DNA of 64,000 bases from assembly GCA_951812955.1 (NCBI GenBank), contig OX638340.1, positions 1,728,001 through 1,792,000 on the forward strand, written 5' to 3'. This document shows, one piece after another, positions 42,831-58,756 of the stretch. A program made the translations under genes and the position numbers. Below the pieces are notes generated by a model. That model searched no databases and was not told the origin of the DNA. It saw only the letters and a list, made by a program, of their open reading frames with translations. Numbering within the stretch: the stretch's first letter is position 1; every line of letters starts with the position of its first letter. Origin of the DNA: an uncultured Gemmatimonadota bacterium. GTDB lineage: Bacteria > JAAXHH01.

Positions 42831-42836
42831 CCAGGC

Positions 42837-43283: not shown

Positions 43284-43947
43284 AAATAAGATCCTGACCA
43301 GGCGGATCCAGGGATCATCGGACTTATATCTTCGGTCTTATATCTTCGGTCTTAAATTTCTCGTCGATTTAAGAGTAAACCCGATATGCCCAGACCTACT
43401 GCTTTTCTCGCAACATAGCCTTGATTTCAGACACCTCGGATTCGATGTTTTTCAAGCTGCCTTTGATTTCAGTTACAAGGGCGTTTGTTTCGGCCCACAG
43501 ATCTGGAATCTTGCCGAATACATTTGCTTGCTGACCAACCTTTTTTGATAACCAGTTCATCGGCATCCTCTTTCATTTTCGAAATGTCTTAACGGGTGGC
43601 CGTGTTATTGAGTCCTTCCCATCTATCCGTCCTAACACTGCTATTTCGATACTATTGCGTTTTACAGGCCGAAGTAAAGAAGATCCTGAACTCATCTGAT
43701 GAATCAGCGGATTTCTGCCTTTGTCATTTCTGATTCTCCAGGTGTTCTTCCGTTTTCTGGTTCACTCGTTTGATCACGTAACCTTGAAATCGGTGGCGCA
43801 AATTCCGTGAATGTATAACCTCACTAGAATACAGTGGACTAGAAGCGAGATTTCTCGTGTTTTTATCAGAATTGTGAGTAAATGTTAACATTGAAAAACT
43901 AGGTTCCTTTATCTTTCTCCTCCCTTTATAACACAACTGAACGTTCG

Positions 43948-43985
43948 AGAATTACCCATACACAGGTGAATTACCCATACACAGG
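43948..43985. repeat. Perfect 19-bp direct repeat GAATTACCCATACACAGGT x2, 30 bp upstream of hsdR
   Basis: Copies at 43948-43966 and 43967-43985. Confidence 0.85.
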
Positions 43986-44015
43986 TATAGATCAAAAGCA
44001 AAACGGATATACAGC

Positions 44016-46781
44016 ATGCAGAGCGCCAACCAAACACCTGAACAGAAGGCACGAGACATCATCGACGTCAGGCTGGAACGCGCTGGCTGGAACTTACAGT
44101 CGAAGAACGAGATCGACTTCAGCGCTGGTCGCGGTATTGCCGTTCGCGAGTATCCGACAGACATAGGCCCCGCGGATTACGTCCTTTTTGTCGACAAGAA
44201 ACCAACCGGCGTGGTTGAGGCCAAACCTGCCACGCAGGGTCAAAATATCACGACTGTCGAGGAGCAGTCATCTGGTTATGCCAATGCCAACCTCAAGTGG
44301 GTAGACAACAAAGAGCCACTCCCCTTTGTCTACGAATCTACCGGCGAGCTCACGAGGTTCACCGACAGTCGCGACCCGAATCCTCGCTCACGAGAAGTGT
44401 TCAGCTTCCATCGGCCAGAGACCATGGCGAACTGGCTCAGCCAGTCCAATCCACTGCGTGAGCGGCTCCAGGGGCTGCCGGAATTGGATGTCAAAGGACT
44501 CAGGGCGTGCCAGATAAACGCCATCGAGAACCTTGAAACATCCTTCAAAAAGGACCACCCTCGCGCCCTCATTCAGATGGCTACCGGCTCCGGTAAAACC
44601 TACACAGCCATTACCTCGATCTACCGACTGCTCAAGCACGCTGACGCCAGGCGAGTCCTCTTCCTTGTAGACACCAGAAACCTCGGCGAACAGGCCGAAC
44701 AGGAATTCATGGCCTACGTGCCCGGTGACGACAACCGCAAGTTCACCGAGCTGTACAACGTCCAGCGCCTCAAATCGTCCTACGTCGCCAACGACAGCCA
44801 GGTCTGCATCAGCACGATCCAGCGTATGTATTCGATTCTGAGGGACGAGGAACTGGATGACGCTACAGAGCAAATCAACCCGGCGGAAATGGTGCAGCCC
44901 AAAAAACCAGTGCCGGTTGCCTATAACGAGAAGATCCCACCGGAGTTCTTCGACTTCATCATCATCGACGAATGCCACCGCTCGATTTACAACCTGTGGC
45001 GGCAAGTCCTCGAGTATTTTGATGCCTATCTCATCGGCCTGACTGCTACGCCGGACAACCGAACCTATGGATTCTTCCGAAAGAACGTGGTCAGTGAATA
45101 CCCACATGAGGAAGCCGTCGCCGACGGCGTAAACGTCGGCAACGAAGTCTATGTCATCGACACGGAAAGGACAAAGCACGGCGGAAGACTCAAGGCGGAG
45201 CAGCAAGTTGAAAAACGCGAGCGCCTGACGCGGCTCAAACGCTGGGAGATTCAGGACGAGGACGTCACCTACACCGCCAAGGAACTCGACCGGTCCGTCG
45301 TCAACCCCGACCAGATCCGCACCGTCATCCGCACTTTCCGTGACAAACTGCCTGAGATATTCCCGGGCCGCGCCGAAGTCCCGAAGACGCTCGTTTTTGC
45401 AAAGACCGACAGCCATGCCGACGACGTCATCCAGACCGTGCGCGAAGAATTCGGCGAAAGTAACGAGTTCTGCAAGAAGGTCACTTACAAAACCGAAGAA
45501 GACCCGAAATCCGTCCTCGCCCAGTTCCGCAACGACTACTATCCGCGCATCGCGGTAACCGTGGATATGATCGCCACGGGTACCGACGTAAAGCCGCTCG
45601 AATGCCTGCTCTTCATGCGTGACGTGAGGAGCCGTAACTATTTCGAGCAGATGAAAGGTCGTGGCACCCGCACCCTCGACCATGACGATCTCAGACAGGT
45701 CTCGCCCTCCGCCGCCAGCGGAAAGACCCACTACGTGATCGTGGACACCGTAGGGGTCACGAAATCGCTCAAGACCGCCAGCCAGCCGCTCGTCACCAAG
45801 CCCTCCGTGCCACTCAGGGACCTCCTCATGGGGGTGATGATGGGCGCATGCGATGAAGACACGGTGAGTTCGCTCGCCGGGCGCCTCGCGCGGCTTGATC
45901 AACAACTCGATTCCGCCGATAAAGAGCGGATCAAGAAGCAAGCCGGCGGTATCGAACTCACTCAAATCGTTGGCGATCTACTTGCCGCCATCGACCCTGA
46001 TCGCATTCAGGAAAAGGCGCATGGAATCGAACCCGTGCCCGACGGTGTTGAACCACCACCTGCCGTTTGCGAGAAGGCCCGGGAGCAGCTGGTCCATGAC
46101 GCAGCCGACGTGTTCAACGGCGAACTGGTCGAATTGATCGACTCGATACGTCGCGACAAGGATCAGACGATCGACCATGACAGCTTGGACAAGGTAACCC
46201 GCGCCGAATGGGAAGGCGACACGCGCGAGAACGCCGAAGCCATAGCGCAGGACTTCCGGCAGTATCTCGAAGCGAATCGCGATGAGATCGAAGCGCTGAC
46301 CATCTTCTTCGCCCAACCGCACCGTCGCCGGGAGTTGACGTACGCCATGATTCGTGAAGTCTTCGATAGACTGAAGAGCGACCAGCCTCGACTGGTCCCA
46401 TTACGGGTCTGGCAGGCCTATGTTCTGCTCGACGAATACAAAGGCGGTCAGCCAATCAGCGAACTGACTGCGCTTGTAGCGTTGATTCGCCGTGCCTGTG
46501 GCATCGATGGAAAGCTTTCGCCCTATTCGGAAACCGTGCGCCGGAATTTCCGGGACTGGATCATGAAGCGACACAGCGGTAGCGGAGAGAAGTTCAACGA
46601 CGAGCAGATGGACTGGCTGCGAATGATCCGCGAACACATCATCACTTCGTTTCATCTTGAACGCGATGATCTGGATTTAGCACCATTCGATAGCAGGGGT
46701 GGAATGGGGCAGATGTACAAGCTCTTCGGTGACCAGATGGATGAATTGATTGGCGAGTTGAATGAGATACTGGCGGCGTAA
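44016..46781 (+). CDS. hsdR: Type I restriction enzyme R (endonuclease/translocase) subunit
   Basis: N-terminal PD-(D/E)xK nuclease core (D...VVEAKP). SF2 helicase motif I QMATGSGKTYTAI and motif II DECHRS. 921 aa. Confidence 0.93.
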   Translation: MQSANQTPEQKARDIIDVRLERAGWNLQSKNEIDFSAGRGIAVREYPTDIGPADYVLFVDKKPTGVVEAKPATQGQNITTVEEQSSGYANANLKWVDNKEPLPFVYESTGELTRFTDSRDPNPRSREVFSFHRPETMANWLSQSNPLRERLQGLPELDVKGLRACQINAIENLETSFKKDHPRALIQMATGSGKTYTAITSIYRLLKHADARRVLFLVDTRNLGEQAEQEFMAYVPGDDNRKFTELYNVQRLKSSYVANDSQVCISTIQRMYSILRDEELDDATEQINPAEMVQPKKPVPVAYNEKIPPEFFDFIIIDECHRSIYNLWRQVLEYFDAYLIGLTATPDNRTYGFFRKNVVSEYPHEEAVADGVNVGNEVYVIDTERTKHGGRLKAEQQVEKRERLTRLKRWEIQDEDVTYTAKELDRSVVNPDQIRTVIRTFRDKLPEIFPGRAEVPKTLVFAKTDSHADDVIQTVREEFGESNEFCKKVTYKTEEDPKSVLAQFRNDYYPRIAVTVDMIATGTDVKPLECLLFMRDVRSRNYFEQMKGRGTRTLDHDDLRQVSPSAASGKTHYVIVDTVGVTKSLKTASQPLVTKPSVPLRDLLMGVMMGACDEDTVSSLAGRLARLDQQLDSADKERIKKQAGGIELTQIVGDLLAAIDPDRIQEKAHGIEPVPDGVEPPPAVCEKAREQLVHDAADVFNGELVELIDSIRRDKDQTIDHDSLDKVTRAEWEGDTRENAEAIAQDFRQYLEANRDEIEALTIFFAQPHRRRELTYAMIREVFDRLKSDQPRLVPLRVWQAYVLLDEYKGGQPISELTALVALIRRACGIDGKLSPYSETVRRNFRDWIMKRHSGSGEKFNDEQMDWLRMIREHIITSFHLERDDLDLAPFDSRGGMGQMYKLFGDQMDELIGELNEILAA

Positions 46782-46928
46782 GTCGGTCTTTTGCCAGGCT
46801 TCTTACTGCTGCTCCCTTCTGCCGCACTACTTTACATATTGACCATTATCTTTACATCATGTAGTTTTTCTTGGTATATTATAGCAAGTAAAGAAATTCA
46901 ATAATACTCCAACAATTGATCTGCATCA

Positions 46929-47177
46929 TTGGAGCGTATCGTGCCCAAAGTCAGCGCCAAGCGACAGATAACGCTTCCGGCTGATCAGTGCCGTCTGGTC
47001 GGTATCGAGCCAGGCGACGAGTGCCAGAGTTTCGTGGCCGATGGCCGCATTACCATAGTCCGCCAGGAGCCCGGCAGCGCCTGGGGATGTCTGTCGCATC
47101 TCGAAGGGGATCAGACGGTTTCAGACGAGGAGTCGCGCCAGAACGCCATGGAGAGAAAGCGGGACCAAACGCCTTGA
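46929..47177 (+). CDS. vapB: AbrB/SpoVT/MazE-fold antitoxin (VapB-like)
   Basis: Swapped-hairpin segment SAKRQITLPADQCRLVGIEPGDE. The stop overlaps the start of a PIN-domain gene. Confidence 0.7.
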   Translation: MERIVPKVSAKRQITLPADQCRLVGIEPGDECQSFVADGRITIVRQEPGSAWGCLSHLEGDQTVSDEESRQNAMERKRDQTP

Positions 47178-47575
47178 TCGCAATCGACACCAATGTCCTG
47201 CTGCGCTATCTCCTGAAAGATGATGAGGCGCAGGCTGAACGGGCGCGTAGCGTTATCGAGTGCGGCGAGCGCGTGCTCATTACGGACGTGGTACTGGCGG
47301 AAACGGTATGGACGTTAGCCGGCCGCAGATATCGCGCGAGCCGGACCGATCTGATCGATCTGGTCAACAAACTGCTGCAAGATGCCAACCTGTGCTTTGA
47401 GGATGACGAAGTGGTCTGGAGCGCCCTGCAGGCCTTTCGCAGGACGGAGGCGGACTTCGCCGACGCCCTGATCGTGTGCAAGGCCAGAAAGACGGTCCCC
47501 GCCGGCGACGAGTTGAGCGCGGTTTACACCTTCGATGATACCGCCTTGCAGTTGCCCGGTACCGCAGAGCCGTAG
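47174..47575 (+). CDS. vapC: PIN-domain ribonuclease toxin (VapC-like)
   Basis: TTG at 47174 overlaps the vapB TGA (TTGA). PIN acidic residues IAIDTNVLL ... ITDVVLAE ... DFADALI. The track ORF is over-extended upstream. Confidence 0.72.
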   Translation: MIAIDTNVLLRYLLKDDEAQAERARSVIECGERVLITDVVLAETVWTLAGRRYRASRTDLIDLVNKLLQDANLCFEDDEVVWSALQAFRRTEADFADALIVCKARKTVPAGDELSAVYTFDDTALQLPGTAEP

Positions 47576-47689
47576 CGCGTGTCTGGTGTATCGGCGCACG
47601 GGAAGTATGCCGGTATCTTTGTGAGTAGATGGATGAAGTTACTGATGAGTTGAATGAGGCGTTGGTGGCGTCTTTGACGGACTGATTTT

Positions 47690-49231
47690 GTGAATACTAT
47701 GATTCCAAATGGATGGGCCCATACATCGCTTGAAGCGGTGTGTCAGGTTCTCGATTCTAAGCGTATACCGTTAAATAACAGCGAACGTTCTCGACGTATC
47801 GCTGGTAAGTCCGCTGATGATCTTTACCCCTACTACGGCGCTACAGGTCAAGTCGGTGTAATTGACGATTTTATCTTTGATGGAGAACATGTTTTATTGG
47901 GCGAAGACGGTGCCCCATTTAATGATCCTTTCAAGGTAAAATCTTATCTGGTAGATGGGAAATTCTGGGTCAACAATCATGCTCATATTCTCAAATCAGC
48001 TATCCCAAACAGATATCTATGCCACTATCTCAATCAGATTGACTATTCTGGCTATGTAACAGGAACGACAAGACTGAAGCTTACTCAGACCGCATTAAAG
48101 CGAATTCCTGTTCTTGTTGCTCCCAAAGCCGAACAACACCGCATCGTCGCCAAAATCGAGGAACTGTTTTCCAAACTGGACAAGGGCATTGAGAGCCTGA
48201 AGGCGGCGAGGGCAAAGCTCGATGTCTATCGTCAGGCCGTGCTCAAGCACGCCTTCGAAGGCAAGCTCACGGCCCAGTGGCGCGAAGAGAACAAGGACAA
48301 GCTTGAGACACCCGAGCAATTACTCTCACGCATCAAAAAAGAGCGGGAAGCACGTTATAATAGGCAACTGCAGGAGTGGAAGGACGCCGTCAAGAAATGG
48401 GTGGAAGGCGGTAAGTCAGGAAAGAAGCCGACGAAACCTCCGAAGTTGGAGGAAATACCACACTTATCGATAACCGAAACAGTAACTCTTCCACCCCTCC
48501 CCGCTAATTGGGCTTATTTACACTTGGGGCTTGTGATCGACGAGCCCAAGTACGGTAGTTCGAAGAAATGTAACTACGACTACAAAGGCACAGGGGTTTT
48601 GAGAATACCTAATATCGTCCGAGGTGCAGTCGACACGTCCGATCTCAAAGGGACTCACTTCGAAGAGGACGAGAAACGCGCCTACGGTTTGAGGAGTGGT
48701 GAAATTCTCGTGATCCGATCAAACGGAAGTATCTCCGTAGTAGGTAGGTGCGCTCTAATCTCAAAAGCAGAAGAGCAGTATCTGTACGCTGGTTACCTTA
48801 TCCGCCTACGTAGTAACTTGACCGCGTTGCATCCCGAGTACCTTGTAGCTCTACTGTCAAGCCATCTGTTACGAACTCAAATCGAGCACAAAGCAAAATC
48901 GACTAGCGGTGTCAACAACATAAATTCGGGTGAAATCCAATCGCTCATCGTCCCTTTGTGCAGTCTCAGTGAGCAGGAAATAGTAGTCGAACGACTGTCT
49001 GCAAGTCTATCCTCGATTGACGCTATCAAGGGTGAGATCGACAATCAGCTACTACAAACCGAAGCCCTGCACCAATCCATCCTCAAGAAAGCATTCTCGG
49101 GCCAGCTCGTCCCGCAAGACCCGAATGACGAGCCCGCGTCAATTCTGCTTGAGCGCATCAATGGCGTAAAAGCTGCACTATCTCAAAACAACACACAGAG
49201 AAGACGTAGACACGAGAAGGCAACGGCATGA
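47690..49231 (+). CDS. hsdS: Type I restriction-modification specificity subunit
   Basis: Two target-recognition domains separated and followed by conserved coiled-coil spacer repeats (AKIEELFSKLDKGIESL ...). 513 aa. Confidence 0.9.
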   Translation: MNTMIPNGWAHTSLEAVCQVLDSKRIPLNNSERSRRIAGKSADDLYPYYGATGQVGVIDDFIFDGEHVLLGEDGAPFNDPFKVKSYLVDGKFWVNNHAHILKSAIPNRYLCHYLNQIDYSGYVTGTTRLKLTQTALKRIPVLVAPKAEQHRIVAKIEELFSKLDKGIESLKAARAKLDVYRQAVLKHAFEGKLTAQWREENKDKLETPEQLLSRIKKEREARYNRQLQEWKDAVKKWVEGGKSGKKPTKPPKLEEIPHLSITETVTLPPLPANWAYLHLGLVIDEPKYGSSKKCNYDYKGTGVLRIPNIVRGAVDTSDLKGTHFEEDEKRAYGLRSGEILVIRSNGSISVVGRCALISKAEEQYLYAGYLIRLRSNLTALHPEYLVALLSSHLLRTQIEHKAKSTSGVNNINSGEIQSLIVPLCSLSEQEIVVERLSASLSSIDAIKGEIDNQLLQTEALHQSILKKAFSGQLVPQDPNDEPASILLERINGVKAALSQNNTQRRRRHEKATA

Positions 49232-49983
49232 CCGGCAAACTTGCCATCAACATCGATAACCTGCTGCGCCAGCGTGCCATCGAAGAGGCGCTGGTGAACG
49301 CCATCGACCATCGCTCATACGAGGAGCGGGAGCCGGTTGAAGTTCGGATCACCCGCGATGAGTTGCTGGTCCTGAGTTATCCCGGGGCGGACCGCTCCAT
49401 CCGTATGGACGACTTCAAGCAGGGGCAGGCCGTGAGCAGGCGCTACCGGAACCGGCGAATTGGTGAGTTTCTGAAGGAACTCGACCTCGCCGAGGCCTGC
49501 TCAACCGGGGTGCCGAAGATTTTCACGGCCATGCAGCAGAACGGCTCACCGGAACCCATCTTCGAAAGCGACGAGAACCGGACCTGGTTTCGCGTGCGCC
49601 TGCCGGTGCATGAACGGGCATTACTTGCCACGACCGACCAGGATACCATACATGATACCCAACATGATAACTCATTGATAAATAAAAGGAAAAGTCACGG
49701 TACCCAACACGGTACCCAACATGATACCCAACATGATATCGACCAAGTCGAGCAACTGGTGGCTGTGCTCACTGGAGAGATGAGCCGAGCTAGTATCCAG
49801 GCAGGATTGGAACTCAAAGATCGGCCCCATTTCATCGAATCGTATCTAAAGCCTGCCCTGGAGGCCAAGTTGATTGAAATGACCCTCCCGGACAAACCCA
49901 CCAGTCGCCACCAGCGCTATCGCCTAACTGCCGCTGGAAAGGCTTTAGCTGAGCAAATCAAACGAGAGAACACCGCCAAATGA
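49228..49983 (+). CDS. HATPase_c_4 (RecG-C-terminal-like) plus wHTH small protein embedded in the hsdS-hsdM operon
   Basis: Segment NAIDHRSYEEREPVEVRITRDELLVLSYPG ... WFRVRLPVH matches the C-terminal module of Schlafen/AlbA_2-type putative regulators common in R-M loci. ATGA overlaps at both ends (49228/49231 and 49980/49983). Internal HGTQHGTQHDTQHD repeat. Confidence 0.5.
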   Translation: MTGKLAINIDNLLRQRAIEEALVNAIDHRSYEEREPVEVRITRDELLVLSYPGADRSIRMDDFKQGQAVSRRYRNRRIGEFLKELDLAEACSTGVPKIFTAMQQNGSPEPIFESDENRTWFRVRLPVHERALLATTDQDTIHDTQHDNSLINKRKSHGTQHGTQHDTQHDIDQVEQLVAVLTGEMSRASIQAGLELKDRPHFIESYLKPALEAKLIEMTLPDKPTSRHQRYRLTAAGKALAEQIKRENTAK

Positions 49984-51467
49984 ACACCGCTCCCATCGTA
50001 TCCAAAGTCTGGAGTTTCTGCAACACCCTGCGCGACGACGGGGTGAGCTATGGCGATTACCTGGAACAACTCACCTATCTGATATTTCTGAAGATGGCAG
50101 ACGAGTACGCCAAACCGCCGTACAGTCGGGACGTCGGCATCCCGGTCGAATTCAACTGGCAGAGCCTGAGATCGAAGAACGGCGCGGAACTCGAAGGCCA
50201 CTACGTCGCGCTGCTTCGAGCCTTCGGCACCAGGACGGGCATGCTGGGCCAAGTCTTTACCAGGGCCCAGAACAAGATCCAGGATCCGGCAAAGCTGTTC
50301 CGCCTCATCGCCATGGTGGACGACACCGAATGGGTCACCATGGGCGCCGACATAAAAGGGGATATCTACGAAGGGCTCCTGGAGAAGAACGCCGAAGATA
50401 CCAAGACCGGCGCGGGCCAGTATTTCACGCCGCGTGCTCTCATCCGGGCCATGGTCGAGTGCGTACGGCCCGAACCGGGAATGCTCATCGCTGACCCGGC
50501 CTGCGGTACGGGCGGTTTCTTTCTCGCTGCATACGACTTCATCACCAACCAGGACAATTTCAGGTTAGACAAGGATCAAAAAGCGTTCCTGAAACACGAG
50601 GCGTTTCACGGCAATGAAATCGTCCCCAATACACGCCGTCTTTGCCTGATGAACATGTTCCTGCACAATATCGGTGAAATCGACGGCGGCGTCCCGATAT
50701 CGCCCAACGACGCGCTGGTGGCCGATGCCGGCAAGCGTTACGACTATGTGCTGGCGAATCCGCCCTTCGGCAAGAAAAGTTCCATGAGTTTCACGAACGA
50801 GGAAGGCGAACAGGAAACCGACGACCTGACCTACAACCGGCAGGATTTCTGGGCGACGACCTCGAACAAACAGCTGAATTTCGTGCAGCACATCCGCACG
50901 ATGCTCAAGACCACCGGCCGCGCTGCTGTCGTCGTTCCCGACAATGTACTGTTCGAAGGCGGGGCCGGTGAGACGATCCGCAAAAAGCTGCTGGACAACA
51001 CGGACTTGCACACCATCCTGCGCCTGCCGACGGGCGTGTTCTACGCGCAGGGCGTCAAGGCCAATGTGATCTTCTTCGACAATCACGAAGCCAGCCCGAA
51101 TCCCTGGACGAAGCAGGTCTGGTACTACGACTACCGCACCAATATCCACCATACGCTGAAGAAGAAACCACTGCGCTTCGAGGACCTGTCGGATTTCATC
51201 AACTGCTACAACCCGCAGAATCGCCACCAGCGCAAGGCGACCTGGGACGAAAACGATGCACCGGAAGGCCGTTGGAGGAGTTACAGCTACGAGGAGATAA
51301 TCGCGCGCGACAAGACCAGTCTCGACATCTTCTGGCTCAAGGACAAAAGCCTGACGGACCTGGACAACCTGCCCGAACCTGATGACCTTGCCGAAGAGAT
51401 CATAGAGAACCTGGAGGCAGGTCTCAACAGCTTTCGCGAGGTGCTGGCTGGATTGGGGAGGCAGTAG
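49980..51467 (+). CDS. hsdM: Type I restriction-modification N6-adenine DNA methyltransferase subunit
   Basis: HsdM N-terminal domain, motif I DPACGTGGF, motif IV NPPFG. 495 aa. Confidence 0.95.
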   Translation: MNTAPIVSKVWSFCNTLRDDGVSYGDYLEQLTYLIFLKMADEYAKPPYSRDVGIPVEFNWQSLRSKNGAELEGHYVALLRAFGTRTGMLGQVFTRAQNKIQDPAKLFRLIAMVDDTEWVTMGADIKGDIYEGLLEKNAEDTKTGAGQYFTPRALIRAMVECVRPEPGMLIADPACGTGGFFLAAYDFITNQDNFRLDKDQKAFLKHEAFHGNEIVPNTRRLCLMNMFLHNIGEIDGGVPISPNDALVADAGKRYDYVLANPPFGKKSSMSFTNEEGEQETDDLTYNRQDFWATTSNKQLNFVQHIRTMLKTTGRAAVVVPDNVLFEGGAGETIRKKLLDNTDLHTILRLPTGVFYAQGVKANVIFFDNHEASPNPWTKQVWYYDYRTNIHHTLKKKPLRFEDLSDFINCYNPQNRHQRKATWDENDAPEGRWRSYSYEEIIARDKTSLDIFWLKDKSLTDLDNLPEPDDLAEEIIENLEAGLNSFREVLAGLGRQ

Positions 51468-51608
51468 GCGGTAGATGAACTTGTTAGGGACTCACTTACC
51501 GCGTATTACGATTATGTTCCGTTTATTTTCACTGTATTGAAGTTACTCCGAAAAACCAGTTAGGTTCGATTCATTTTCCATCGCAAGTATGTAAATCACT
51601 GAATTACT

Positions 51609-53777
51609 ATGAATAGTAACTGCAAAACTGAAGTTCGATCCGAATCTGAAATAGTCACCGATTTAGAGAGTTTGAGCCAGGAAAAAGGGTACATCTATTC
51701 CTTCTGTCGAATGGTTGATGAATACCTGTGGTTGAAACCCAGCGAACCCGAAATCCCTGATTGGCACAGTCAATTAAACATACGTGAGTTAACTTTCTTA
51801 TTAGGGTTAATGGTCAAGTATCAATTGACCATATCTGATTCTCCGACTGAACGGGAGTCTGACCTACATATCGATAAGACCAATGAGTTGTTTCATGAAC
51901 TTCATCAAACTCATGCTTTTCCGAAAACAAAGGAAGTAAACGCCGCCCAAGTGAACTTAGAAGATTGGGAATCGGGGTTGAAAAACACCTATACCGACTG
52001 GATCAAAAGCGGTAAAGGTATCGTCGAGCCGGTTTTTTATGGTGAAGAAGGTGCATACGATTTCCAGTTCCTCAAAATGGCAGCATGGAGGTACAAACTT
52101 GATAATCAGTGGATAAAGTCGAACATAGGTATGGATGTTGATACTTTAACTGATATCGCAGGTAAGATTAAACGACTTACCGAATATCGCGCCAATGATG
52201 TAACCAGGACGTCAGACTTCAGAGATTCATGCTTTCGGTTGATATCAGTCTTCTTAATTAAGCCAGATGGCGTTCCTGGCGCTAATAGAGAAGAAATCGA
52301 AGTCTTTCTTGAAACCTTTTCTGTTGAACCACGGGACGGAGTTAATCAGAACCTTAACACGATTGGTGAATACAACACGGCAGACTCGCACCCCATTATT
52401 AAGATTAACAATGAACTTTATTTCATTCCCATCTACTACAACCTAGCAAAATCCATCTACGAGAACCCCTTCTACTGGATTCTCAAAGACAGTGATTACA
52501 GACAAACAGGACTTCAGAACAGGGGTGATGTTACAGAAGAAATAGTATTCGAACTGTTACGACGAGTTTTTGGTATAGACAACGTTTTTCGCAGGGTAAA
52601 AATAAAACGTGGAAACAGAGACATAACGGATATCGACGTTCTTGCAGTATGTGGGAGTAAAGCTGTCATTGTACAGGTGAAATCTAAGAGACTTACGGTG
52701 CTGTCGAAAGGTGGTGATGGCAAGAGCATAGAGAAGGATTTCAAACAAGCTGTTCAGGATGCTTACACCCAAGCGTTATTGTCGAGAAACTTCCTGCTAG
52801 AGACAGATGAAACACTGACGGTTAATGAAGAAAGGCTAATGCAGGTCAAAGGGAACATCGATGATGCCTATATAATCTGCGCTACTGGTGATCATTATCC
52901 TGCAATTACTATTCAGACAAAGTCATACCTCAAAAAGAAGGCAACCGACCCTTACCCAGTTGTACTAAGCGTTTTTGACCTTGATACTATATCGTTTTAC
53001 CTCAGAGAACCGTATGATTTCATATACTACGTTCGTCAACGCACTATACATGCGGGTCACTTCGAGGCTGATTCAGAAATGGCCTTTCTTGGTTTTCATC
53101 TAAACAAAAAACTATTTCCCACAGATGGATATGATATCACGATTATCCCACAATATTATGCATATCTCATCGATATTAGTTTTCCAGTCCTAAAGGGTGA
53201 GCATCCTATTTCGGATGCAGCATACAAGGTATTCCACAAGTGGAAAAACAACGATTTTGATGAGCTAGTTAATGAAATCAAAGTTAGAAATACCGGTCAT
53301 CCACAACTGACAGATTTGATTTTCTTTTTGTTCGATTTAGCAGGATCAGTAGCCGACAAGATTTTCGAAATCTTCGGCGAAATCAAACGAACCACTCGTG
53401 GTGACCTAAAGCCTCACGATGCTACAATTCCAATAGACCAAGCCGGGAAAGGTATAACACTGTTCTGCTACCCTTCGACGTTAGAACTTAGTGAGACAAT
53501 AATCCAAGATCAGTTTCGAGGCTTTGCAGCTGCTCGGAAATACAAAAGCAAAGCTAATGAATGGTTAGCGCTCGCATCATCCGCACAAAGTTCAAATCTG
53601 TTTGACTGTCTCTGGTATAGTAAAGAAGTATGGTGTTATGATGAGAGTTTCGAGCGTCTATCAAAACACATGATTAAACAAGGACATCCCATTCGTACTG
53701 ACGGACGGAAAATAGGTAGAAATTCACCCTGCCCTTGTGGAAGTGGATTGAAGTTTAAAAAGTGCCACGGAAAATAA
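51609..53777 (+). CDS. Large uncharacterised protein with a NERD-like (PD-(D/E)xK-type) core and a C-terminal SEC-C zinc-binding motif
   Basis: 722 aa, AT-rich. Segment RGNRDITDIDVLAVCGSKAVIVQVKSKR matches the NERD/PD-(D/E)xK D...(E/Q)xK core. The C-terminus GRNSPCPCGSGLKFKKCHGK is a SEC-C (SecA C-terminal-type) metal-binding motif. Confidence 0.6.
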   Translation: MNSNCKTEVRSESEIVTDLESLSQEKGYIYSFCRMVDEYLWLKPSEPEIPDWHSQLNIRELTFLLGLMVKYQLTISDSPTERESDLHIDKTNELFHELHQTHAFPKTKEVNAAQVNLEDWESGLKNTYTDWIKSGKGIVEPVFYGEEGAYDFQFLKMAAWRYKLDNQWIKSNIGMDVDTLTDIAGKIKRLTEYRANDVTRTSDFRDSCFRLISVFLIKPDGVPGANREEIEVFLETFSVEPRDGVNQNLNTIGEYNTADSHPIIKINNELYFIPIYYNLAKSIYENPFYWILKDSDYRQTGLQNRGDVTEEIVFELLRRVFGIDNVFRRVKIKRGNRDITDIDVLAVCGSKAVIVQVKSKRLTVLSKGGDGKSIEKDFKQAVQDAYTQALLSRNFLLETDETLTVNEERLMQVKGNIDDAYIICATGDHYPAITIQTKSYLKKKATDPYPVVLSVFDLDTISFYLREPYDFIYYVRQRTIHAGHFEADSEMAFLGFHLNKKLFPTDGYDITIIPQYYAYLIDISFPVLKGEHPISDAAYKVFHKWKNNDFDELVNEIKVRNTGHPQLTDLIFFLFDLAGSVADKIFEIFGEIKRTTRGDLKPHDATIPIDQAGKGITLFCYPSTLELSETIIQDQFRGFAAARKYKSKANEWLALASSAQSSNLFDCLWYSKEVWCYDESFERLSKHMIKQGHPIRTDGRKIGRNSPCPCGSGLKFKKCHGK

Positions 53778-53847
53778 CATCCGATCCTGAAACTTGATCT
53801 TGCAAGGGTCTGTCACGGAAAGGTTCGGTCATAGAGTATTAAGCTTA

Positions 53848-54918
53848 TTATTCTTCTTGTTCTTCGGGATATGGGAGGACTGGGGCTGTTGTCCAGCCTT
53901 CACGTTCAGGTGAATTATGTCCTGTACATATAGTTCTGCCCTCTGTCGAAACTACTTTCGCCCCACGGTGTATACAAGCCCGAATAACTGCTTTTCTAGG
54001 GTGATCCTCGTCTTCTTTAGACGCACTTATAATTGCGTTAAAATGTTCGTTTCCCTCTTCTTGCTTCTCTGGCAGTCGCTTACCCAGCAATCTGTCAAGT
54101 ATCTCCGTTGATAAATTGCGTCGTGATCCGTGGTGCGGGACCTGAAAATGGTCAATTCCTGGAAGTGTCAGTCCTACTGATGGCGCATAATCCAGTGCCT
54201 CGGTAAGTGCACCTCGTCCTGCATCCGCAGTCAGTAATACCTTTTTCTCGCAAAGATTAGCATACTGGATCACACTCATCTCATTTTCAAAGCTAGTTTC
54301 TTCCGGTGAAAACGTTTCTTCACCCCATGCAGATCTTATAAACGAAACAACACTTTTTACGAAAGCACGTCCATGTCCTAACAATGATTGAGCTGTCCCT
54401 TCCGGAGTTCTATCGGATTCAACAATGAGATTCAGATACCTTTCTTTTGATGGTGCAAGGACCGTGAACTCTCCGATTTGTTCTCCTTGAAATGGTGCCA
54501 ATATCGGTATCTCTCGTGCCTTAGCAATCTCTTCAAGTTCGGCAATGTTTGGGTATATTTCCTTTAGCCTACGAACCAGATTCTCCACATTTGTAAAACG
54601 AGCAAACCGGTCAATTAACTCATCTGCATATAGCCATGGTCGTAACATCCACAACTCTGAGACGCTAAATGCTTCGAGGACTTTTCGTAGCCCGCCTGTA
54701 TGGTCGCCATCGGAATGACTGGCTATAACGGCATCAATCGTGCTAGGGTCATCATAATACTTTTTGATATGCTCAATTACAATGTCTCCAGAATCCTGAA
54801 ATCCTCCATCAGTTACGTGAACTCTCTTGACACCAGCTATGGAATACCGAAGTGGTATTGCATCCCCGCTCTTGCTTGACTTTACGTCAAGGAAATCAAT
54901 TTCAAAAAAGTATGACAT
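53848..54918 (-). CDS. Metallo-beta-lactamase-fold hydrolase, ComEC-C-terminal-like (putative nuclease)
   Basis: MBL motifs HVTDGG (D), ASHSDGDHTGG (variant HxHxDH), LLTADAG, and a terminal VPHHGS motif reminiscent of ComEC/Rec2-type MBL domains. 356 aa, AT-rich. Confidence 0.65.
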   Translation of the reverse strand: MSYFFEIDFLDVKSSKSGDAIPLRYSIAGVKRVHVTDGGFQDSGDIVIEHIKKYYDDPSTIDAVIASHSDGDHTGGLRKVLEAFSVSELWMLRPWLYADELIDRFARFTNVENLVRRLKEIYPNIAELEEIAKAREIPILAPFQGEQIGEFTVLAPSKERYLNLIVESDRTPEGTAQSLLGHGRAFVKSVVSFIRSAWGEETFSPEETSFENEMSVIQYANLCEKKVLLTADAGRGALTEALDYAPSVGLTLPGIDHFQVPHHGSRRNLSTEILDRLLGKRLPEKQEEGNEHFNAIISASKEDEDHPRKAVIRACIHRGAKVVSTEGRTICTGHNSPEREGWTTAPVLPYPEEQEE

Positions 54919-54921
54919 ATG

Positions 54922-55422
54922 CTACTCTTGCTCCTTGATTTTAGCGTTTCTTACGCGCTTAGCTACATATTGAGTCTGTTTTCTATAAGAGAATAAAAAT
55001 ATCAACAATAACCCCGCCAAAATTATTAAAACTATTTCATCATCACTTATAGACCACAAATGCTTCAACTCGTCAAAGATTTTGAGGAAAACTAACACAA
55101 TCACTAGCGAACTCAGCGTACGATACATGTTGTTCTGTTCTGACAAGACCTCGATCTTTGAATCCACTTCTACTGCTTCCAGATAATCCTTGTAGTCTGC
55201 GAACCGAACAAATTTGATCTTTTTGAGTAGGGGTTCCAATATCAACGATCCAATCCTGCTAATGACCAACCCTGCCATGTAGTATATAAACACTCCTATG
55301 ATCCAGTCCTTATGGACTAATGAAAATGAGGTGATTTGTTCTCCCAGACCAGCAAATAGAACTCCAGGAAGTAGATAGTTAAAAATGTTATATGACGACA
55401 GCTTTTCAATTACAGTTTTCAT
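54922..55422 (-). CDS. Small polytopic membrane protein, first gene of a two-gene operon with the MBL-fold hydrolase
   Basis: 166 aa with about 4 hydrophobic helices (LLPGVLFAGL, IIGVFIYYMAGLVI, LSSLVIVLVFL, IVLIILAGLLLIFLF). Its stop lies 3 nt before the MBL gene start. Confidence 0.6.
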   Translation of the reverse strand: MKTVIEKLSSYNIFNYLLPGVLFAGLGEQITSFSLVHKDWIIGVFIYYMAGLVISRIGSLILEPLLKKIKFVRFADYKDYLEAVEVDSKIEVLSEQNNMYRTLSSLVIVLVFLKIFDELKHLWSISDDEIVLIILAGLLLIFLFSYRKQTQYVAKRVRNAKIKEQE

Positions 55423-56413
55423 CAGGTTTGCCTTTTTGTTTTATTGCCTAAAACATCCTCCATAACAACAAAATCTAATGTACACAACTAATCGTCGTAC
55501 TAGCTAGTAAGTGAAACTTCCACTCCTATCCTGCTTTAAAATGGTATGTCAACACCAGAAGTGATTTTTGTACAGCACCTAATTGGGTAGTGATATGTTT
55601 TTAAATCTCGTTGAATGTAACCCTAATGTATCGACAAATCCCGATTATTTACAAGTAATTAACCCGTAGATTGCCTCTTTAAACAGATTGACATGGGAGG
55701 TTCTACATGGTAACCTGAACACGTCAACGATTCCAATTCGGCTCGAGCCGGGTATTCTGCTGAATATAGAACCCACAAAGGTAGATTTGCAAAACCTCCC
55801 GCAATCTTTAGGTGGAGCGTTGACACTGCCCGTCACCAACAAACAGATTGGTGCTAAAGCTGGGGTTCGCCATGAGGGTTTTCGGTACCATAGTACTGTG
55901 GGTGTTAGCACTGTAGGAACTTAGATGTTCATAGTTGCCATGTTTTATTCCAATTCGGTTTCCTAGGAGCTAGAGCAGGACAATCTCGATTTAGTAGCAA
56001 AGGAACATCAGGTCTCTGTTTTGGAGAATACCCTTGAGAAGTTGAGGGCTCAAACCAACTTGGTGGATGAACTGACGGCCGTTCAGATAGAAAACATCAA
56101 ACTGATGGATAAGTTGATCAAAGCGAACAACGACTAGATTAATATGGTAAACAAGCATTTCATAAAGCATAGGTACCGTCCCATTGACCGGGGAGGGTTA
56201 GATTGCAACTAAGTCTTAGGATTGGTCGCCAGAGACTGAACGGTTCGGTGCCCTGATTGCGTGGTTGAATGGTCAAGTTCGAGGAAATTGACAAGCAGTT
56301 CGACCGGGTGGATGTACCACTGGACGTGCTGGTGCTGAACATGCGTGAACTCAGAACCGATGTGACAGATGGTCTTAGAAAACACGCAATAGAAAGATAG
56401 GAGGGAGTGAAGA

Positions 56414-57151
56414 ATGGAAAATGACGGACAACTGGAACAGATTATCGAACTGTTGATGGACTTAAATTCCCACATGGCAGACCTTAAAGAACTCATCAAG
56501 GTTTCAAACAATCAACTGGATATCATCAAAAGTTACTTGGACAGCATAGATCGTAATTCAGCATAGGAGTCAATATGTCGTTGGGAGGATATACGTATAT
56601 AGCGGACACTGAGACATTGAAATCAAACTACGAGTTATTGCAGAAAAGCCTTATTCAACTTATCAACGAGACGAATAGTGCTGAAATAATGCTCAAGGCG
56701 ATTTCGTTAATGATCGAACTAGATTCCACCTATACCAAGGGAAATAGGTGAAGGGGTCTTTATGCCCACAGGACCGAAGGGCGAGAAGCGGCCTCGTGAC
56801 TTCGTCGGATCGGTCATTACAGTCGGCAAGATCACCACTGGTTTAATAGAAGAGACCAGAGTAAGCCCTGCCAAGTAAAATGCCGGAACTAGGCCAGGTC
56901 GATACGACTGACCGCGTCATGCCGGACCGAGATCGGCTGGTATGCCGGCGAATGTGCGGTGGGGAGGTCAAAGTACCAGATAGCGGAGGATTGACATGAA
57001 GCAACTGGAGCAGAAGGATATTAAGATCGCATTGGATAGGCTCAATGCCGAAATAGAACAAAAGCAACGCACGGTGGACCATTATCAAGGTGAATTGGAT
57101 AGCCTTAAAAACGTTGCGGAGCTTTTGGAGTCTCTTCTGGGATCACAGTAA
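56414..57151 (+). CDS. Cluster of four tiny AT-rich ORFs (50, 58, 38 and 51 aa), coiled-coil-like, each with an RBS
   Basis: ORFs at 56414-56566 (AGGAGGGAG RBS), 56575-56751, 56762-56878 and 56996-57151 (GGAGGA RBS). All are below the 60-aa track cutoff and were translated by hand. Confidence 0.3.
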
Positions 57152-57453
57152 ACTGATACTGGTGGAAGTCAGTATGGATTTTGGAAGAATTTAAGATCGT
57201 ACTCGAAATCGTAAGGACATTGCTTGGCCCATGATTGAAAGGAGGTCATGATGGACAGGTACAAAGGAATGTATCCGATTCCAATAAATAGAGAAATCAT
57301 TGAGACCAAGAGGAAGCATTGGGAAGTCCTTCTATAAGCAGACCGAGTTCTCGAACAGGCTTCCAAGCAAATTGGTCTCGACACGTCCGAAGAAACATAT
57401 TAAAAATAAGAGAAATGCTTAACACAACGGGTTGGTTTCGTTATACTTAGTAT

Positions 57454-58191
57454 ATGAAAAGGATCATCCGAGACAAGCTACTGTTAATGCTGAACATGCT
57501 GTTAGAAGTGTCTTCGATAAGTTCTATCGCTAGGATCGTCGGGGTCAACTACATCACCGTTCAGAAACTCATGCTGGATTCCGTTCAGGTGTGCAAAATC
57601 TTCCACCATAAAACCGTAATGGATGAAGACGCCAAGCAAATACAATGCGACAAATATGGAACTTCGTTTAGAACAAGGTCCAATGCGGTCTGGACGTAGA
57701 CGGCCATCCGGCAAGACACCAAGTTTATTCTGGCTTTCAAGGACGGAGACAGAACCAACGAAACCGCCAAGACGCTATTCGACGATCTGATGACGCGGCT
57801 GCGAAACAAGATGTGGATCCGGACGGACAGGCTTCCTTCCTACTCAGGGGCGATATGGGACTCGTTTTTCGTGTCTGCCACACATCAATTAGCGGGCGCC
57901 GCCGCAGTCTAATACTCCAACATAGAGCGCCAGAATCTCAACATGCACATGGGAGTGTGAAGGTACACCCGAGCGACCGATGCGTTCTCTAAGAAGATCG
58001 ACTATCTATACAACCTGCTCTCATTGTACTTCGTCTTCTACAACTTTATCCGAAAGCATCTGCTACTTGGCATGACTCTCGCTCAGGGAATCGGCCTTTC
58101 TGGTGAAACCCGCGACCTGGGTAAGATACTTGATGTGGTGGACGAAGCAGCCCCACTTCCGAACAGGCCGAAGACGTACAGAAAGTGCTAG
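57454..58191 (+). mobile_element. Degenerate IS1-family insertion sequence (InsA-like ORF intact, InsB region disrupted by stops/frameshifts)
   Basis: InsA-like HTH LLEVSSISSIARIVGVNYITVQKL. InsB-like segments in other frames: MWIRTDRLPSY (cf. IS1 TDGWPxY) and IERQNLNMH...AFSKKIDYLYN (cf. IS1 IERHNLNLRQHLARL..SLSFSKS), interrupted by stop codons. Confidence 0.6.
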
Positions 58192-58550
58192 GAACATCAT
58201 TCATTCTTTTGTCACAAGGAGTATTCACTGTGGATATGCGTAAACTTACGGTTAAAATATCTGATCCCAATGAGGAAGATTCATCGGGGTTTTTAGTTGA
58301 GGCTGTACCGATTGGGGCAAGCCTCGTCTTGACATCAGTAGGATACATCAGATTGAGGGCAGTGAGTGAAAGAACGGATGTATACGGTCTCGCTATTTTG
58401 GAGTTAATTCCTTCTGCAAAGTTGAATGGCTTGTATTACAGGATCAATATCTCTGACGGTAGCGCGAGTTACTCACGCTTTATCATAATGCCGAACGAAG
58501 ACGTCAATCTGCATGATTTAATGTTGTATGAAGAGATGCCGGAAGGCTGA
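58185..58550 (+). CDS. Hypothetical protein, AT-rich, last ORF of the island
   Basis: 121-aa ORF abutting the IS1 remnant, with no recognisable motifs. A more likely start is MRKLTVK at 58236. Confidence 0.3.
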   Translation: MLGTSFILLSQGVFTVDMRKLTVKISDPNEEDSSGFLVEAVPIGASLVLTSVGYIRLRAVSERTDVYGLAILELIPSAKLNGLYYRINISDGSASYSRFIIMPNEDVNLHDLMLYEEMPEG

Positions 58551-58756
58551 AGGCTAAATTACCGATAACATACAATCCTTAGTACTACCTTAATTGAATG
58601 ATAGCGGTACCTAGAGTTGCTTGTAATCGGGCTCTCACAATCTCGTTTAAAAATTGGTCAACAATCAATGTGCTCTTAACACAGTGCAATTATACACCGC
58701 ACGTTCATCGAGAAACCACATTACTTGATACAACCTCGACTACACGATAAGGCTTT

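What the first reader, a model, noticed from the sequence alone, without database searches (positions are those of the whole stretch)
51609..55422. Candidate undescribed defence module next to a type I R-M system
Three uncharacterised genes sit directly downstream of hsdM in the same AT-rich island. They are a 722-aa protein with a NERD-like D...QxK nuclease core and a terminal SEC-C zinc motif (+ strand), convergent with a two-gene operon: a small 4-TM membrane protein whose stop is 3 nt from the start of a ComEC-like MBL-fold hydrolase (- strand). A nuclease-like effector combined with a membrane component and a large sensor-like protein is typical for anti-phage systems. Defence genes cluster with R-M systems. 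I know of no named system with this composition.
Basis: partly seen in the sequence, partly recalled or inferred. Interest (0 to 1): 0.8.

Follow-up and report, generated by a model that had tools for sequence, protein, structure and literature searches.

The report
Two separate defence-island units, not one
The three genes are real and sit in a variable anti-phage defence island. They are two independent units: a membrane-protein plus ComEC-like nuclease pair already listed as the untested candidate PDC-M48, and a stand-alone restriction-enzyme-like protein that no defence catalogue I could query lists.

Summary
All three ORFs, their domains, the 3-nt junction, the convergent layout and the low-GC island next to hsdM are as described.

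(1) The operon at 53848-55422 (-) matches the PADLOC-DB v2 models PDC-M48A (9e-63) and PDC-M48B (2.6e-166) over their full lengths. It is therefore a catalogued but untested phage-defence candidate. The MBL protein models as a ComEC-type two-metal nuclease domain. It keeps a small multi-TM neighbour in at least 64 of 76 loci from many phyla. [quoted passage not shown]

(2) The 722-aa NERD/SEC-C protein is not a partner of that pair. None of 80 MBL loci carries it, and none of 80 NERD loci carries the pair. Three relatives share the same chromosomal hotspot: one has NERD without the pair, one has the pair without NERD, and one has both. It is a solitary restriction-endonuclease-fold protein (813 representative clusters) with no family-level hit in PADLOC or NCBIfam. 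Its closest solved analogue by Foldseek is the single-protein defence nuclease Upx.

Defence roles are inferred from context. No activity was tested.

The parts
54922..55422 (-). PDC-M48A: small 3-4 TM membrane protein, first gene of the two-gene operon
   Evidence: PADLOC PDLC04670 matches at 9e-63 over the full length (1-162 of 164), and two further PDC-M48A models also match. PHROG 11864 matches at 1.9e-38. A homologue lies directly upstream of the MBL gene in 38 loci.
53848..54918 (-). PDC-M48B: cytoplasmic ComEC-type MBL-fold hydrolase, predicted two-metal nuclease. Motif H68-x-D70-x-D72-H73, D232, H262-H263.
   Evidence: PADLOC PDLC04676 matches at 2.6e-166 over the full length. The metal-ligand residues are invariant in 22 sequences. 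The AF2 model's best PDB match is the ComEC BLD 9ic4, E 3.5e-14. The family has 3747 homologues, with the top 120 at 63% identity or more across phyla.
51609..53777 (+). Stand-alone NERD/restriction-endonuclease-fold protein with helical N-terminal domain, alpha/beta C-terminal domain and terminal SEC-C zinc knuckle. An independent unit.
52524..52796 (+). NERD / PD-(D/E)xK catalytic core (residues 306-396; D341, D343, Q356, K358)
53718..53774 (+). SEC-C zinc motif CPCGSGLKFKKCHGK (residues 704-722)
   Evidence: Pfam E 2.5e-9. It matches SecA and YchJ C-terminal peptides in the PDB.
44016..51467 (+). Neighbouring type I R-M system with embedded genes: hsdR 44016-46781, antitoxin 46941-47177 plus PIN toxin 47174-47575, hsdS 47690-49231, truncated HATPase_c_4/Fic-like_C gene 49228-49983, hsdM 49980-51467
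   Evidence: Pfam and PADLOC. The toxin-antitoxin coordinates are mapped from L161. The truncation is inferred by comparison with the 543-aa gene in L170.
42831..58756 (.). Variable defence-island hotspot between the CBM9-like gene (ends 42830) and xth (58757-59539)
   Evidence: The backbone is conserved at 81-90% identity with L161, L169 and L170, while the cargo differs in each. GC profile.
57451..58188 (+). IS1-family transposase pseudogene with three in-frame stops
   Evidence: Pfam DDE_Tnp_IS1 scores 30 bits against a cut-off of 24.1 on the stop-spanning translation.

Best explanation
The interval holds two unrelated cargo units of one defence-island hotspot.

Unit 1 (53848-55422, minus strand) is a PDC-M48 system. 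It consists of a small 3-4 TM inner-membrane protein (A) translationally coupled to a very conserved, signal-peptide-less MBL-fold enzyme (B). B's fold and metal ligands match the ComEC nuclease domain.
- Shown: the identity with PDC-M48, the fold, the conserved pairing with a small multi-TM protein, and the defence and mobile-element context.
- Inferred mechanism: B is the effector, a two-metal DNA endo/exonuclease. A holds it at the membrane, or regulates it there, and couples its activity to infection. Activation would lead to degradation of phage DNA, or of all DNA in an abortive-infection mode.

Unit 2 (51609-53777, plus strand) is a self-contained single-gene unit. It has a PD-(D/E)xK (NERD) nuclease core flanked by N- and C-terminal domains and a SEC-C zinc knuckle.
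- Shown: the conserved catalytic residues, the solitary and mobile distribution, and its recurrence next to R-M and other defence genes.
- Inferred mechanism: a single-protein DNA-targeting defence nuclease. Its flanking domains would either auto-inhibit the core until a phage cue appears (Upx-like logic) or read DNA modification (type IV-like logic).

The adjacency of the two units here is a property of this lineage's island, not a functional coupling.
For: Unit 1:
- Full-length PADLOC hits.
- The ComEC BLD is the best structural match. That domain is a two-metal endonuclease and 5'-3' exonuclease in vitro (PMC12455585).
- H68, D70, D72, H73, D232, H262 and H263 are invariant.
- A clustered multi-TM partner lies next to the MBL gene in 64 of 76 loci, and in roughly 70 of 74 evaluable loci if singleton TM ORFs are counted, even though gene order and orientation vary.
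- The same MBL subfamily cross-hits the defence models LmuA, RT-associated MBL and Avs1a.
- Neighbours include HmaA, type III and type I R-M genes, E1-E2/JAB, HerA and resolvases.
- The pair lies right after gpA in P2-like phages. That is the old/tin hotspot of Rousset 2022 (PMC9122126), whose Table S5A lists 'hypothetical + Lactamase_B' arrangements.
- The pair is adjacent to, or in the same gene string as, NCBIfam-defined 6A-MBL genes in 8 of 80 loci, and the MBL follows them on an Acinetobacter plasmid.

Independence of the units:
- 0 of 80 and 0 of 80 co-occurrence.
- Presence/absence in the same hotspot: the window and L169 have both, L161 has NERD only, L170 has the pair only.

Unit 2:
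- for the nuclease fold and motifs.
- No conserved neighbour: the largest neighbour cluster covers 5 of 78 loci.
- Defence contexts in the window, L161, L169 and L164 (AAA_15/21, SIR2_2, Eco57I-type), and on Agrobacterium pAt next to AAA and PLD genes.
- A fused methyltransferase-specificity gene ends 2 nt upstream in L130 and L142.
- 813 representative clusters at E<=1e-30.
Against: No phage-protection data exist for either unit. 'PDC-M48' appears in no full text in the library, and PDCs are explicitly untested.

Unit 1: the TM partners fall into at least three sequence groups that hhalign does not connect. That pattern would fit a swappable TM effector as well as a regulator, so the assignment of the effector role to the MBL is uncertain. 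MBL folds also include non-nuclease phosphodiesterases; Pce/CbpE is the second-best structural match.

Unit 2: many loci are among housekeeping genes (L166). Defence enrichment was not quantified against a background. The unit is absent from the phage collection. The functions of the N- and C-terminal domains are unknown, because no structural match extends beyond the nuclease core with any confidence.
Confidence: 0.72

Rival explanations
1. The three genes form one functional defence module, with a sensor-like large protein, a membrane component and an MBL effector.
For: They are contiguous here. In one close relative the 3.9-kb block is conserved at 89% identity (L169).
Against: Co-occurrence is 0 of 80 in each direction. 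In the same hotspot, L161 keeps NERD with XhoI R-M plus Hachiman in place of the pair, and L170 keeps the pair with a 239-aa gene in place of NERD. The genes converge and so are not co-transcribed. On plasmids the two families are dominated by different genera: Agrobacterium for NERD, Acinetobacter, Curtobacterium and Burkholderia for the MBL.
Confidence: 0.04
2. In PDC-M48 the membrane protein is the killing effector, through pore formation or membrane depolarisation leading to abortive infection. The MBL enzyme is the sensor or trigger, for example by processing a phage nucleic acid or a signal molecule.
For: The MBL is extremely conserved, while TM partners are swapped among unrelated families. 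This resembles the exchangeable TM effectors of other systems. One partner family hits Csx27, a CRISPR-associated membrane protein, at 5e-8. Rousset 2022 notes that TM proteins in defence systems are generally regarded as suicide effectors.
Against: The same MBL subfamily occurs without any detectable TM partner, directly after 6A-MBL genes on an Acinetobacter plasmid. It also cross-hits MBL-containing proteins of other defence systems (LmuA, Avs1a). From my own knowledge, not tested here, those MBL domains are thought to act as effectors.
Confidence: 0.25
3. The TM+MBL pair is not an immune system. It would be a housekeeping or mobile-element function related to ComEC-like DNA processing, or a non-nucleic-acid phosphodiesterase.
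For: Some database records name homologues 'competence protein ComEC'. The second-best fold match is a phosphorylcholine esterase. The very high sequence conservation is unusual for defence genes.
Against: There is no ComEC channel or OB domain: TIGR00361 scores 27.8 bits against a cut-off of 190. The distribution across phyla is patchy and suggests horizontal transfer, and the pair lies in low-GC islands. The pair occupies the P2 old/tin hotspot, and its neighbours are R-M, Hma, 6A-MBL and recombinase genes.
Confidence: 0.12
4. The NERD/SEC-C protein is not a defence gene. It would be a DNA repair or recombination nuclease, or a selfish-element gene.
For: Several loci are embedded in housekeeping neighbourhoods (L166). 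No defence catalogue queried lists it.
Against: It moves as a discrete block within a defence hotspot. It recurs beside R-M, SIR2, AAA_15/21, HEPN, Cas1 and NACHT genes. It occurs on conjugative plasmids. Its synteny is not conserved.
Confidence: 0.25

Closest known systems
PDC-M48 (PADLOC-DB v2.0.0 phage-defence candidate, from the guilt-by-embedding screen of Payne et al. 2024)
   Same: Both proteins match the A and B models over their full lengths (9e-63 and 2.6e-166). The genes are adjacent and co-oriented, next to a type I R-M system, which is the context used to define PDCs.
   Different: Nothing distinguishes it; it is a member. This work adds the ComEC-type fold, the P2 hotspot occurrence, the link to 6A-MBL, and MBL loci whose TM partners the PDC-M48A models miss.
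ComEC/Rec2 beta-lactamase-like nuclease domain (e.g. PDB 9ic4)
   Same: It is the best structural match. The HxDxDH-type and HHGS-type metal motifs are present. A two-metal DNA nuclease working at the membrane is a plausible analogy.
   Different: There is no competence channel and no OB fold. The protein is separate and 356 aa long, with no signal peptide. Sequence identity is 20%, and the score is far below the ComEC family cut-off.
6A-MBL anti-phage system (ubiquitin-like cap2_3 protein plus MBL enzyme; NCBIfam NF058523 and NF058524)
   Same: It also uses an MBL-fold protein. PDC-M48B-family genes lie directly after 6A-MBL genes in L006, L008, L015, L024, L071 and L077 and on an Acinetobacter plasmid.
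   Different: The window's MBL scores 20.4 bits against the 220-bit cut-off of the 6A-MBL enzyme model. No cap2_3 gene or remnant lies next to it here.
Upx (single-protein PD-(D/E)xK anti-phage nuclease; PDB 9wuf, PMC13099982)
   Different: There is no sequence-level relationship: the PADLOC search returned only SEC-C-motif hits for this protein, and the PDB profile search did not find Upx. TMq is only 0.38. The protein is 722 aa against 1212 aa, shows one recognisable nuclease core rather than two, and has a SEC-C motif that I did not see described for Upx.
Rst_Hydrolase-3Tm (Rousset 2022)
   Same: A two-gene hydrolase plus TM protein system carried in a mobile-element hotspot.
   Different: That hydrolase is HAD-like, not MBL, and comes from the P4 hotspot. 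The PADLOC search returned no such model for the window's proteins.

Membership tests
PDC-M48 (PADLOC) | Protein matching a PDC-M48A model | tested here: met
   PDLC04670 at 9e-63, residues 1-162 against profile positions 1-162 of 164.
PDC-M48 (PADLOC) | Protein matching a PDC-M48B model | tested here: met
   PDLC04676 at 2.6e-166, residues 1-356 against profile positions 1-357 of 357.
PDC-M48 (PADLOC) | The two genes are adjacent | tested here: met
   Same strand with a 3-nt gap.
PDC-M48 (PADLOC) | Anti-phage activity | not testable with these tools
   PDCs are untested candidates, and no paper in the library mentions PDC-M48.
ComEC/Rec2 | MBL nuclease domain with conserved metal ligands | tested here: met
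   9ic4 is the best fold match. H68, D70, D72, H73, D232, H262 and H263 are invariant.
ComEC/Rec2 | Competence transmembrane channel and OB fold on the same protein; family-level score | tested here: not met
   The protein is a 356-aa soluble protein. TIGR00361 scores 27.8 bits against a cut-off of 190, and Pfam finds only MBL domains.
6A-MBL | MBL enzyme reaching the NF058524 cut-off | tested here: not met
   20.4 bits against a cut-off of 220.
6A-MBL | Adjacent cap2_3 (E1/E2/JAB) gene | tested here: not met
   None in the window. A profile search and tblastn of the flanking 3.3 kb found nothing.
Lamassu (LmuA) / AVAST type 1 (Avs1a) | Full-length match plus partner genes (LmuB SMC protein; Avs1b STAND NTPase) | tested here: not met
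   The LmuA hit (2.6e-18) covers the MBL region only. Avs1a scores 38.8 bits against a cut-off of 420. No SMC or STAND gene is adjacent.
NERD domain / PD-(D/E)xK nucleases | Domain score above the cut-off and a conserved D...(D/E/Q)xK core on a restriction-endonuclease fold | tested here: met
Upx | Sequence membership (Upx model) and a dual-nuclease architecture | tested here: not met
   The PADLOC search returned no Upx model and the PDB profile search did not find Upx. The similarity is structural only. A second nuclease core was not detected, but this was not examined residue by residue.
Type I R-M (as an extra subunit) | Obligate co-occurrence of the NERD/SEC-C gene with hsdRMS | tested here: not met
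   L161 and L169 carry the gene without a type I R-M system. Only 3 of 80 loci have an hsdM homologue nearby.

The most novel reading that the evidence does not exclude
PDC-M48 is an entry-point nuclease. A small membrane protein stations a ComEC-type nuclease at the inner membrane so that injected phage DNA is degraded as it crosses, reusing competence-type DNA processing for immunity. Separately, the NERD/SEC-C family is a new, widespread single-protein restriction-like defence enzyme. In one sub-clade it has recruited a fused methyltransferase-specificity partner.
Probability: 0.15. Interest if true: 0.75.

Novelty: new variant of a known kind. Interest (0 to 1): 0.42.

Why it matters
The result splits one supposed new system into two experimentally tractable candidates.

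PDC-M48 is a strong candidate for validation. Its enzyme is highly conserved and ComEC-like. It occurs from sponge symbionts to E. coli P2-like prophages. It sits in a proven defence hotspot and is tied to the ubiquitin-like 6A-MBL system. A natural E. coli copy exists for testing.

The NERD/SEC-C family has about 800 representative clusters and is missing from the catalogues queried. If it is active, it adds a new single-protein nuclease defence.

The four-way comparison of one chromosomal hotspot is also a clean example of modular cargo exchange in defence islands.

Tried and rejected
- Three-gene module: rejected on distribution.
- Identity with Rst_Hydrolase-3Tm: rejected, because that hydrolase is HAD-like.
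- Membership of ComEC, 6A-MBL, Avs1 or Lamassu: rejected on family cut-offs and missing partner genes.
- The 3.3-kb ORF-less stretch upstream of the operon as a decayed 6A-MBL or ubiquitin-like operon, as found in L006 and L170: no signal by HMM, tblastn or tblastx.
- A structured RNA in that stretch: no Rfam match even at E<=1.
- A tRNA-targeted integrative island: no tRNA gene in the window.
- Promoter and terminator scan: counts do not exceed those of shuffled sequence, so it is uninformative.
- A conserved partner for the NERD/SEC-C gene: none found; the largest neighbour cluster covers 5 of 78 loci.
- Pfam 8xMP hit of the TM protein: below the cut-off (19.1 bits against 30), and a literature search for the name found nothing relevant.
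- Literature searches for 'PDC-M48' and for NERD + SEC-C + anti-phage: no papers.
- The afdb50 fold library was unavailable.


Full report
**Observation**

- On the minus strand the small gene's TAG stop is separated from the next ATG by three bases.
- The 722-aa gene and the operon converge across 70 nt.
- Pfam places a NERD domain (24.6 bits, cut-off 22.1) at residues 306-396 and a SEC-C motif (E 2.5e-9) at residues 704-722 of the large protein. It places Lactamase_B on the 356-aa protein.
- The small protein has three clear hydrophobic stretches in a hydropathy scan. By inspection there is also a weaker N-terminal segment.
- hsdM ends 141 nt upstream of the large gene.
- GC falls from 0.60-0.64 in the backbone to 0.40-0.48 across 51-59 kb.

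**The two-gene operon is PDC-M48**

Against PADLOC-DB v2.0.0, the 166-aa protein matches PDC-M48A (9e-63) and the 356-aa protein matches PDC-M48B (2.6e-166), each end to end. PDCs are the 145 'phage defence candidates' that Payne et al. derived from genes embedded in BREX, DISARM and type I R-M loci. They added these to PADLOC explicitly as untested candidates (bioRxiv 10.1101/2024.01.29.577857). The string 'PDC-M48' occurs in no full text in the library. A study that tested eight PDC/HEC candidates did not include it. The pair is therefore catalogued but uncharacterised.

**What the MBL protein is**

- The family is large (3747 hits) and unusually conserved. The best 120 hits are at least 63% identical and include Poribacteria, a cyanobacterium (Symploca) and Thioalkalivibrio. 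The genome scan added Latescibacterota, Firmicutes, Planctomycetota and several classes of Proteobacteria.
- In a 22-sequence alignment H68, D70, D72, H73, D232, H262 and H263 are invariant. These form an HxDxDH motif and a PHHGS motif.
[quoted passage not shown] The pneumococcal phosphorylcholine esterase Pce comes next.
- The ComEC domain is a two-metal endonuclease and 5'-3' exonuclease in vitro (PMC12455585).
- The protein is not ComEC. It has no channel or OB domain, and TIGR00361 scores 27.8 bits against a cut-off of 190.
- It also cross-hits the MBL modules of LmuA, RT-associated MBL and Avs1a in PADLOC. This subfamily therefore recurs in defence systems.

**The pairing with a membrane protein is conserved, but the partner is not one family**

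I scanned one genome per species and recovered 80 loci.
- A homologue of the window's TM protein lies immediately upstream of the MBL gene in 38 loci.
- Other loci carry different small multi-TM ORFs. These are upstream (about 214 aa), downstream, or on the opposite strand (about 229-248 aa).
- In all, 64 of 76 callable loci have a clustered TM neighbour. The figure is roughly 70 of 74 evaluable loci once singleton TM ORFs and cut contigs are taken into account.
- hhalign links only two of the four partner clusters (89.6% probability). The window's type is not detectably related to the others.
- PADLOC's A models miss the other partner types. One type hits Csx27 at 5e-8.

**Context supports defence**

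- Neighbours of the pair include HmaA (in L001, the locus with the closest MBL at 87% identity), type III and type I R-M genes, E1-E2/JAB genes, HerA, WYL regulators and resolvases.
- Both proteins have PHROG counterparts. By tblastn the pair occurs in E. coli P2-like phages (P24E6b, D8, 11W, 12W) directly after the replication gene gpA. Those phage proteins are themselves PDC-M48A and PDC-M48B (6.4e-49 and 6.4e-99).
- The region between gpA and gpQ is the old/tin defence hotspot defined by Rousset et al. (PMC9122126). Their Table S5A lists 'hypothetical + Lactamase_B' arrangements there. I found no sign that these were tested. Their validated hydrolase+TM system is HAD-like and unrelated.
- PDC-M48B-family genes lie next to NCBIfam-defined 6A-MBL genes (MBL enzyme plus cap2_3) in L006, L008, L015, L024, L051, L057, L071 and L077. 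On Acinetobacter plasmid pOXA58_005078 such a gene follows them without any TM gene.
- A close relative of the window's genome has Multi_ubiq and ThiF genes upstream of the pair (L170).
- 6A-MBL is cited as a validated ubiquitin-related anti-phage system (PMC13276650; bioRxiv 10.1101/2025.09.30.679545).

**The 722-aa protein is a separate unit**

- No NERD/SEC-C homologue lies within 10 kb of any of the 80 MBL loci.
- No MBL or TM homologue lies near any of 80 metagenomic NERD/SEC-C loci.
- The clearest evidence comes from three relatives that share the window's backbone, from the asparaginase, PhyH and CBM9-like genes to xth and topoisomerase IV.
  - L161 carries PIN toxin-antitoxin pairs, a 357-aa gene and NERD/SEC-C (84% identity), followed by an XhoI R-M system and Hachiman. 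It has no PDC-M48 and no type I R-M.
  - L170 carries the type I R-M system and PDC-M48 with a 239-aa gene between them. It has no NERD/SEC-C.
  - L169 carries both units, with HEPN_AbiU2 in place of the R-M system.
- Window 51561-53787 is a discrete 87%-identical block whose two flanks differ between genomes.

**What the 722-aa protein is**

- Homologues are full-length proteins of about 700-780 aa: 442 in the word-indexed search and 813 representative clusters at E<=1e-30.
- D341, D343, Q356, K358 and the CPCGSG...C zinc motif are invariant.
- Foldseek's single significant hit is the single-protein defence nuclease Upx (E 7.6e-5, TMq 0.38). The Upx study reports phage-relieved auto-inhibition by its middle domain (PMC13099982).
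- Apart from the SEC-C motif there is no sequence-level hit in PADLOC, NCBIfam, PHROGs or PDB sequences.
- Neighbours are heterogeneous with no conserved partner; the largest neighbour cluster covers 5 of 78 loci.
- Defence and mobile genes nevertheless recur next to it: hsdS, hsdM, Cas1, NACHT, integrases and DUF4365. L164 has AAA_15/21, SIR2_2 and an Eco57I-type enzyme. Agrobacterium pAt has AAA and PLD genes.
- Other loci sit among housekeeping genes.
- In a 31-32%-identical sub-clade (L130, L142), a fused N6-methyltransferase plus two-TRD specificity gene ends 2 nt before the NERD/SEC-C gene. This hints that some members work as the nuclease of an R-M-like pair.

**Mechanism**

All of this is inferred.

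For PDC-M48 I favour the MBL as a two-metal DNA nuclease effector that the TM protein anchors or gates at the membrane. The main alternative, at about one chance in four, is that the TM protein is the abortive-infection effector and the MBL is the trigger. The swappable TM partners fit that alternative. The TM-less copy after 6A-MBL genes fits the first view.

For NERD/SEC-C I favour a self-contained DNA-targeting nuclease regulated by its flanking domains, with either Upx-like or type IV-like logic. No activity, target or trigger has been shown for either unit.

**Rest of the island (42831-58756)**

- It holds hsdR, a PIN toxin-antitoxin pair that is also present in L161 without the R-M system, and hsdS.
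- Next comes a 251-aa HATPase_c_4/Fic-like_C gene. This is a truncated version of the 543-aa SLFN_AlbA_2-containing gene of L170. hsdM follows.
- Then come the two units discussed above.
- Last is a 3.3-kb stretch unique to this genome with no ORF longer than 138 codons. Its right part is an IS1-family transposase pseudogene (57451-58188). The left 2 kb remains unexplained.

**Verdict**

The three-gene module is not. One unit is an already catalogued, untested candidate (PDC-M48), and this work adds fold, distribution and linkage data for it. The other is an uncatalogued solitary nuclease family. The finding is of moderate interest, mainly as two well-defined targets for experiment.

Noticed in passing
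window 55450-57450: About 2 kb of low-GC sequence with no ORF longer than 138 codons in any frame, no Rfam match and no similarity to any fetched locus. The + strand frames show coiled-coil-like stretches broken by stops. It is probably a decayed cargo gene of unknown identity.
   Followed up: partly
window 57451-58188 (+): IS1-family transposase pseudogene with three in-frame stops (Pfam DDE_Tnp_IS1, 30 bits).
   Followed up: yes
window 49228-49983 (+), compare L170 13562-15193: The gene embedded between hsdS and hsdM (HATPase_c_4 + Fic-like_C, 251 aa) is a truncated form of a 543-aa SLFN_AlbA_2/HATPase_c_4/Fic-like_C gene in a relative. About 855 nt are missing in the window.
   Followed up: partly
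window 46729-46779 and 47621-47671: A 51-nt direct repeat (76% identity) brackets the PIN toxin-antitoxin pair inserted between hsdR and hsdS. The first copy is the 3' end of hsdR. The same toxin-antitoxin block occurs in L161, which has no R-M system.
   Followed up: no
window 43949-43986: A perfect 19-nt tandem duplication (GAATTACCCATACACAGGT, two copies) lies about 30 nt upstream of the hsdR start.
   Followed up: no
window 49633-49750: Imperfect 12-nt tandem repeats (ACCCAACATGAT-like) lie inside the truncated Fic-like_C gene.
   Followed up: no
L006 6115-11053, L008, L015, L024; L168 2510-7071: The PDC-M48 pair forms a tight same-strand string with 6A-MBL genes: MBL enzyme, cap2_3, TM protein, PDC-M48B. 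On Acinetobacter plasmid pOXA58_005078 the PDC-M48B-family gene follows the 6A-MBL genes with no TM gene. This may be an unrecognised extended form of 6A-MBL.
   Followed up: partly
L130 644-5352, L142 310-4808: NERD/SEC-C homologues (31-32% identity) start 2 nt after a fused N6-methyltransferase plus double-TRD specificity gene. This may be an R-M-like two-gene system.
   Followed up: partly
L049 11169-11852, L057, L071, L073: One class of TM partner of the MBL gene (218-237 aa) matches Csx27, the membrane protein associated with type VI-B CRISPR, at 5e-8.
   Followed up: no
L161 12289-18432: In a related genome the slot occupied by PDC-M48 in the window holds an XhoI-type R-M system and a Hachiman system (HamA plus a 1173-aa helicase). 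The region between the CBM9-like gene and xth is therefore a recurrent defence hotspot in this lineage.
   Followed up: yes
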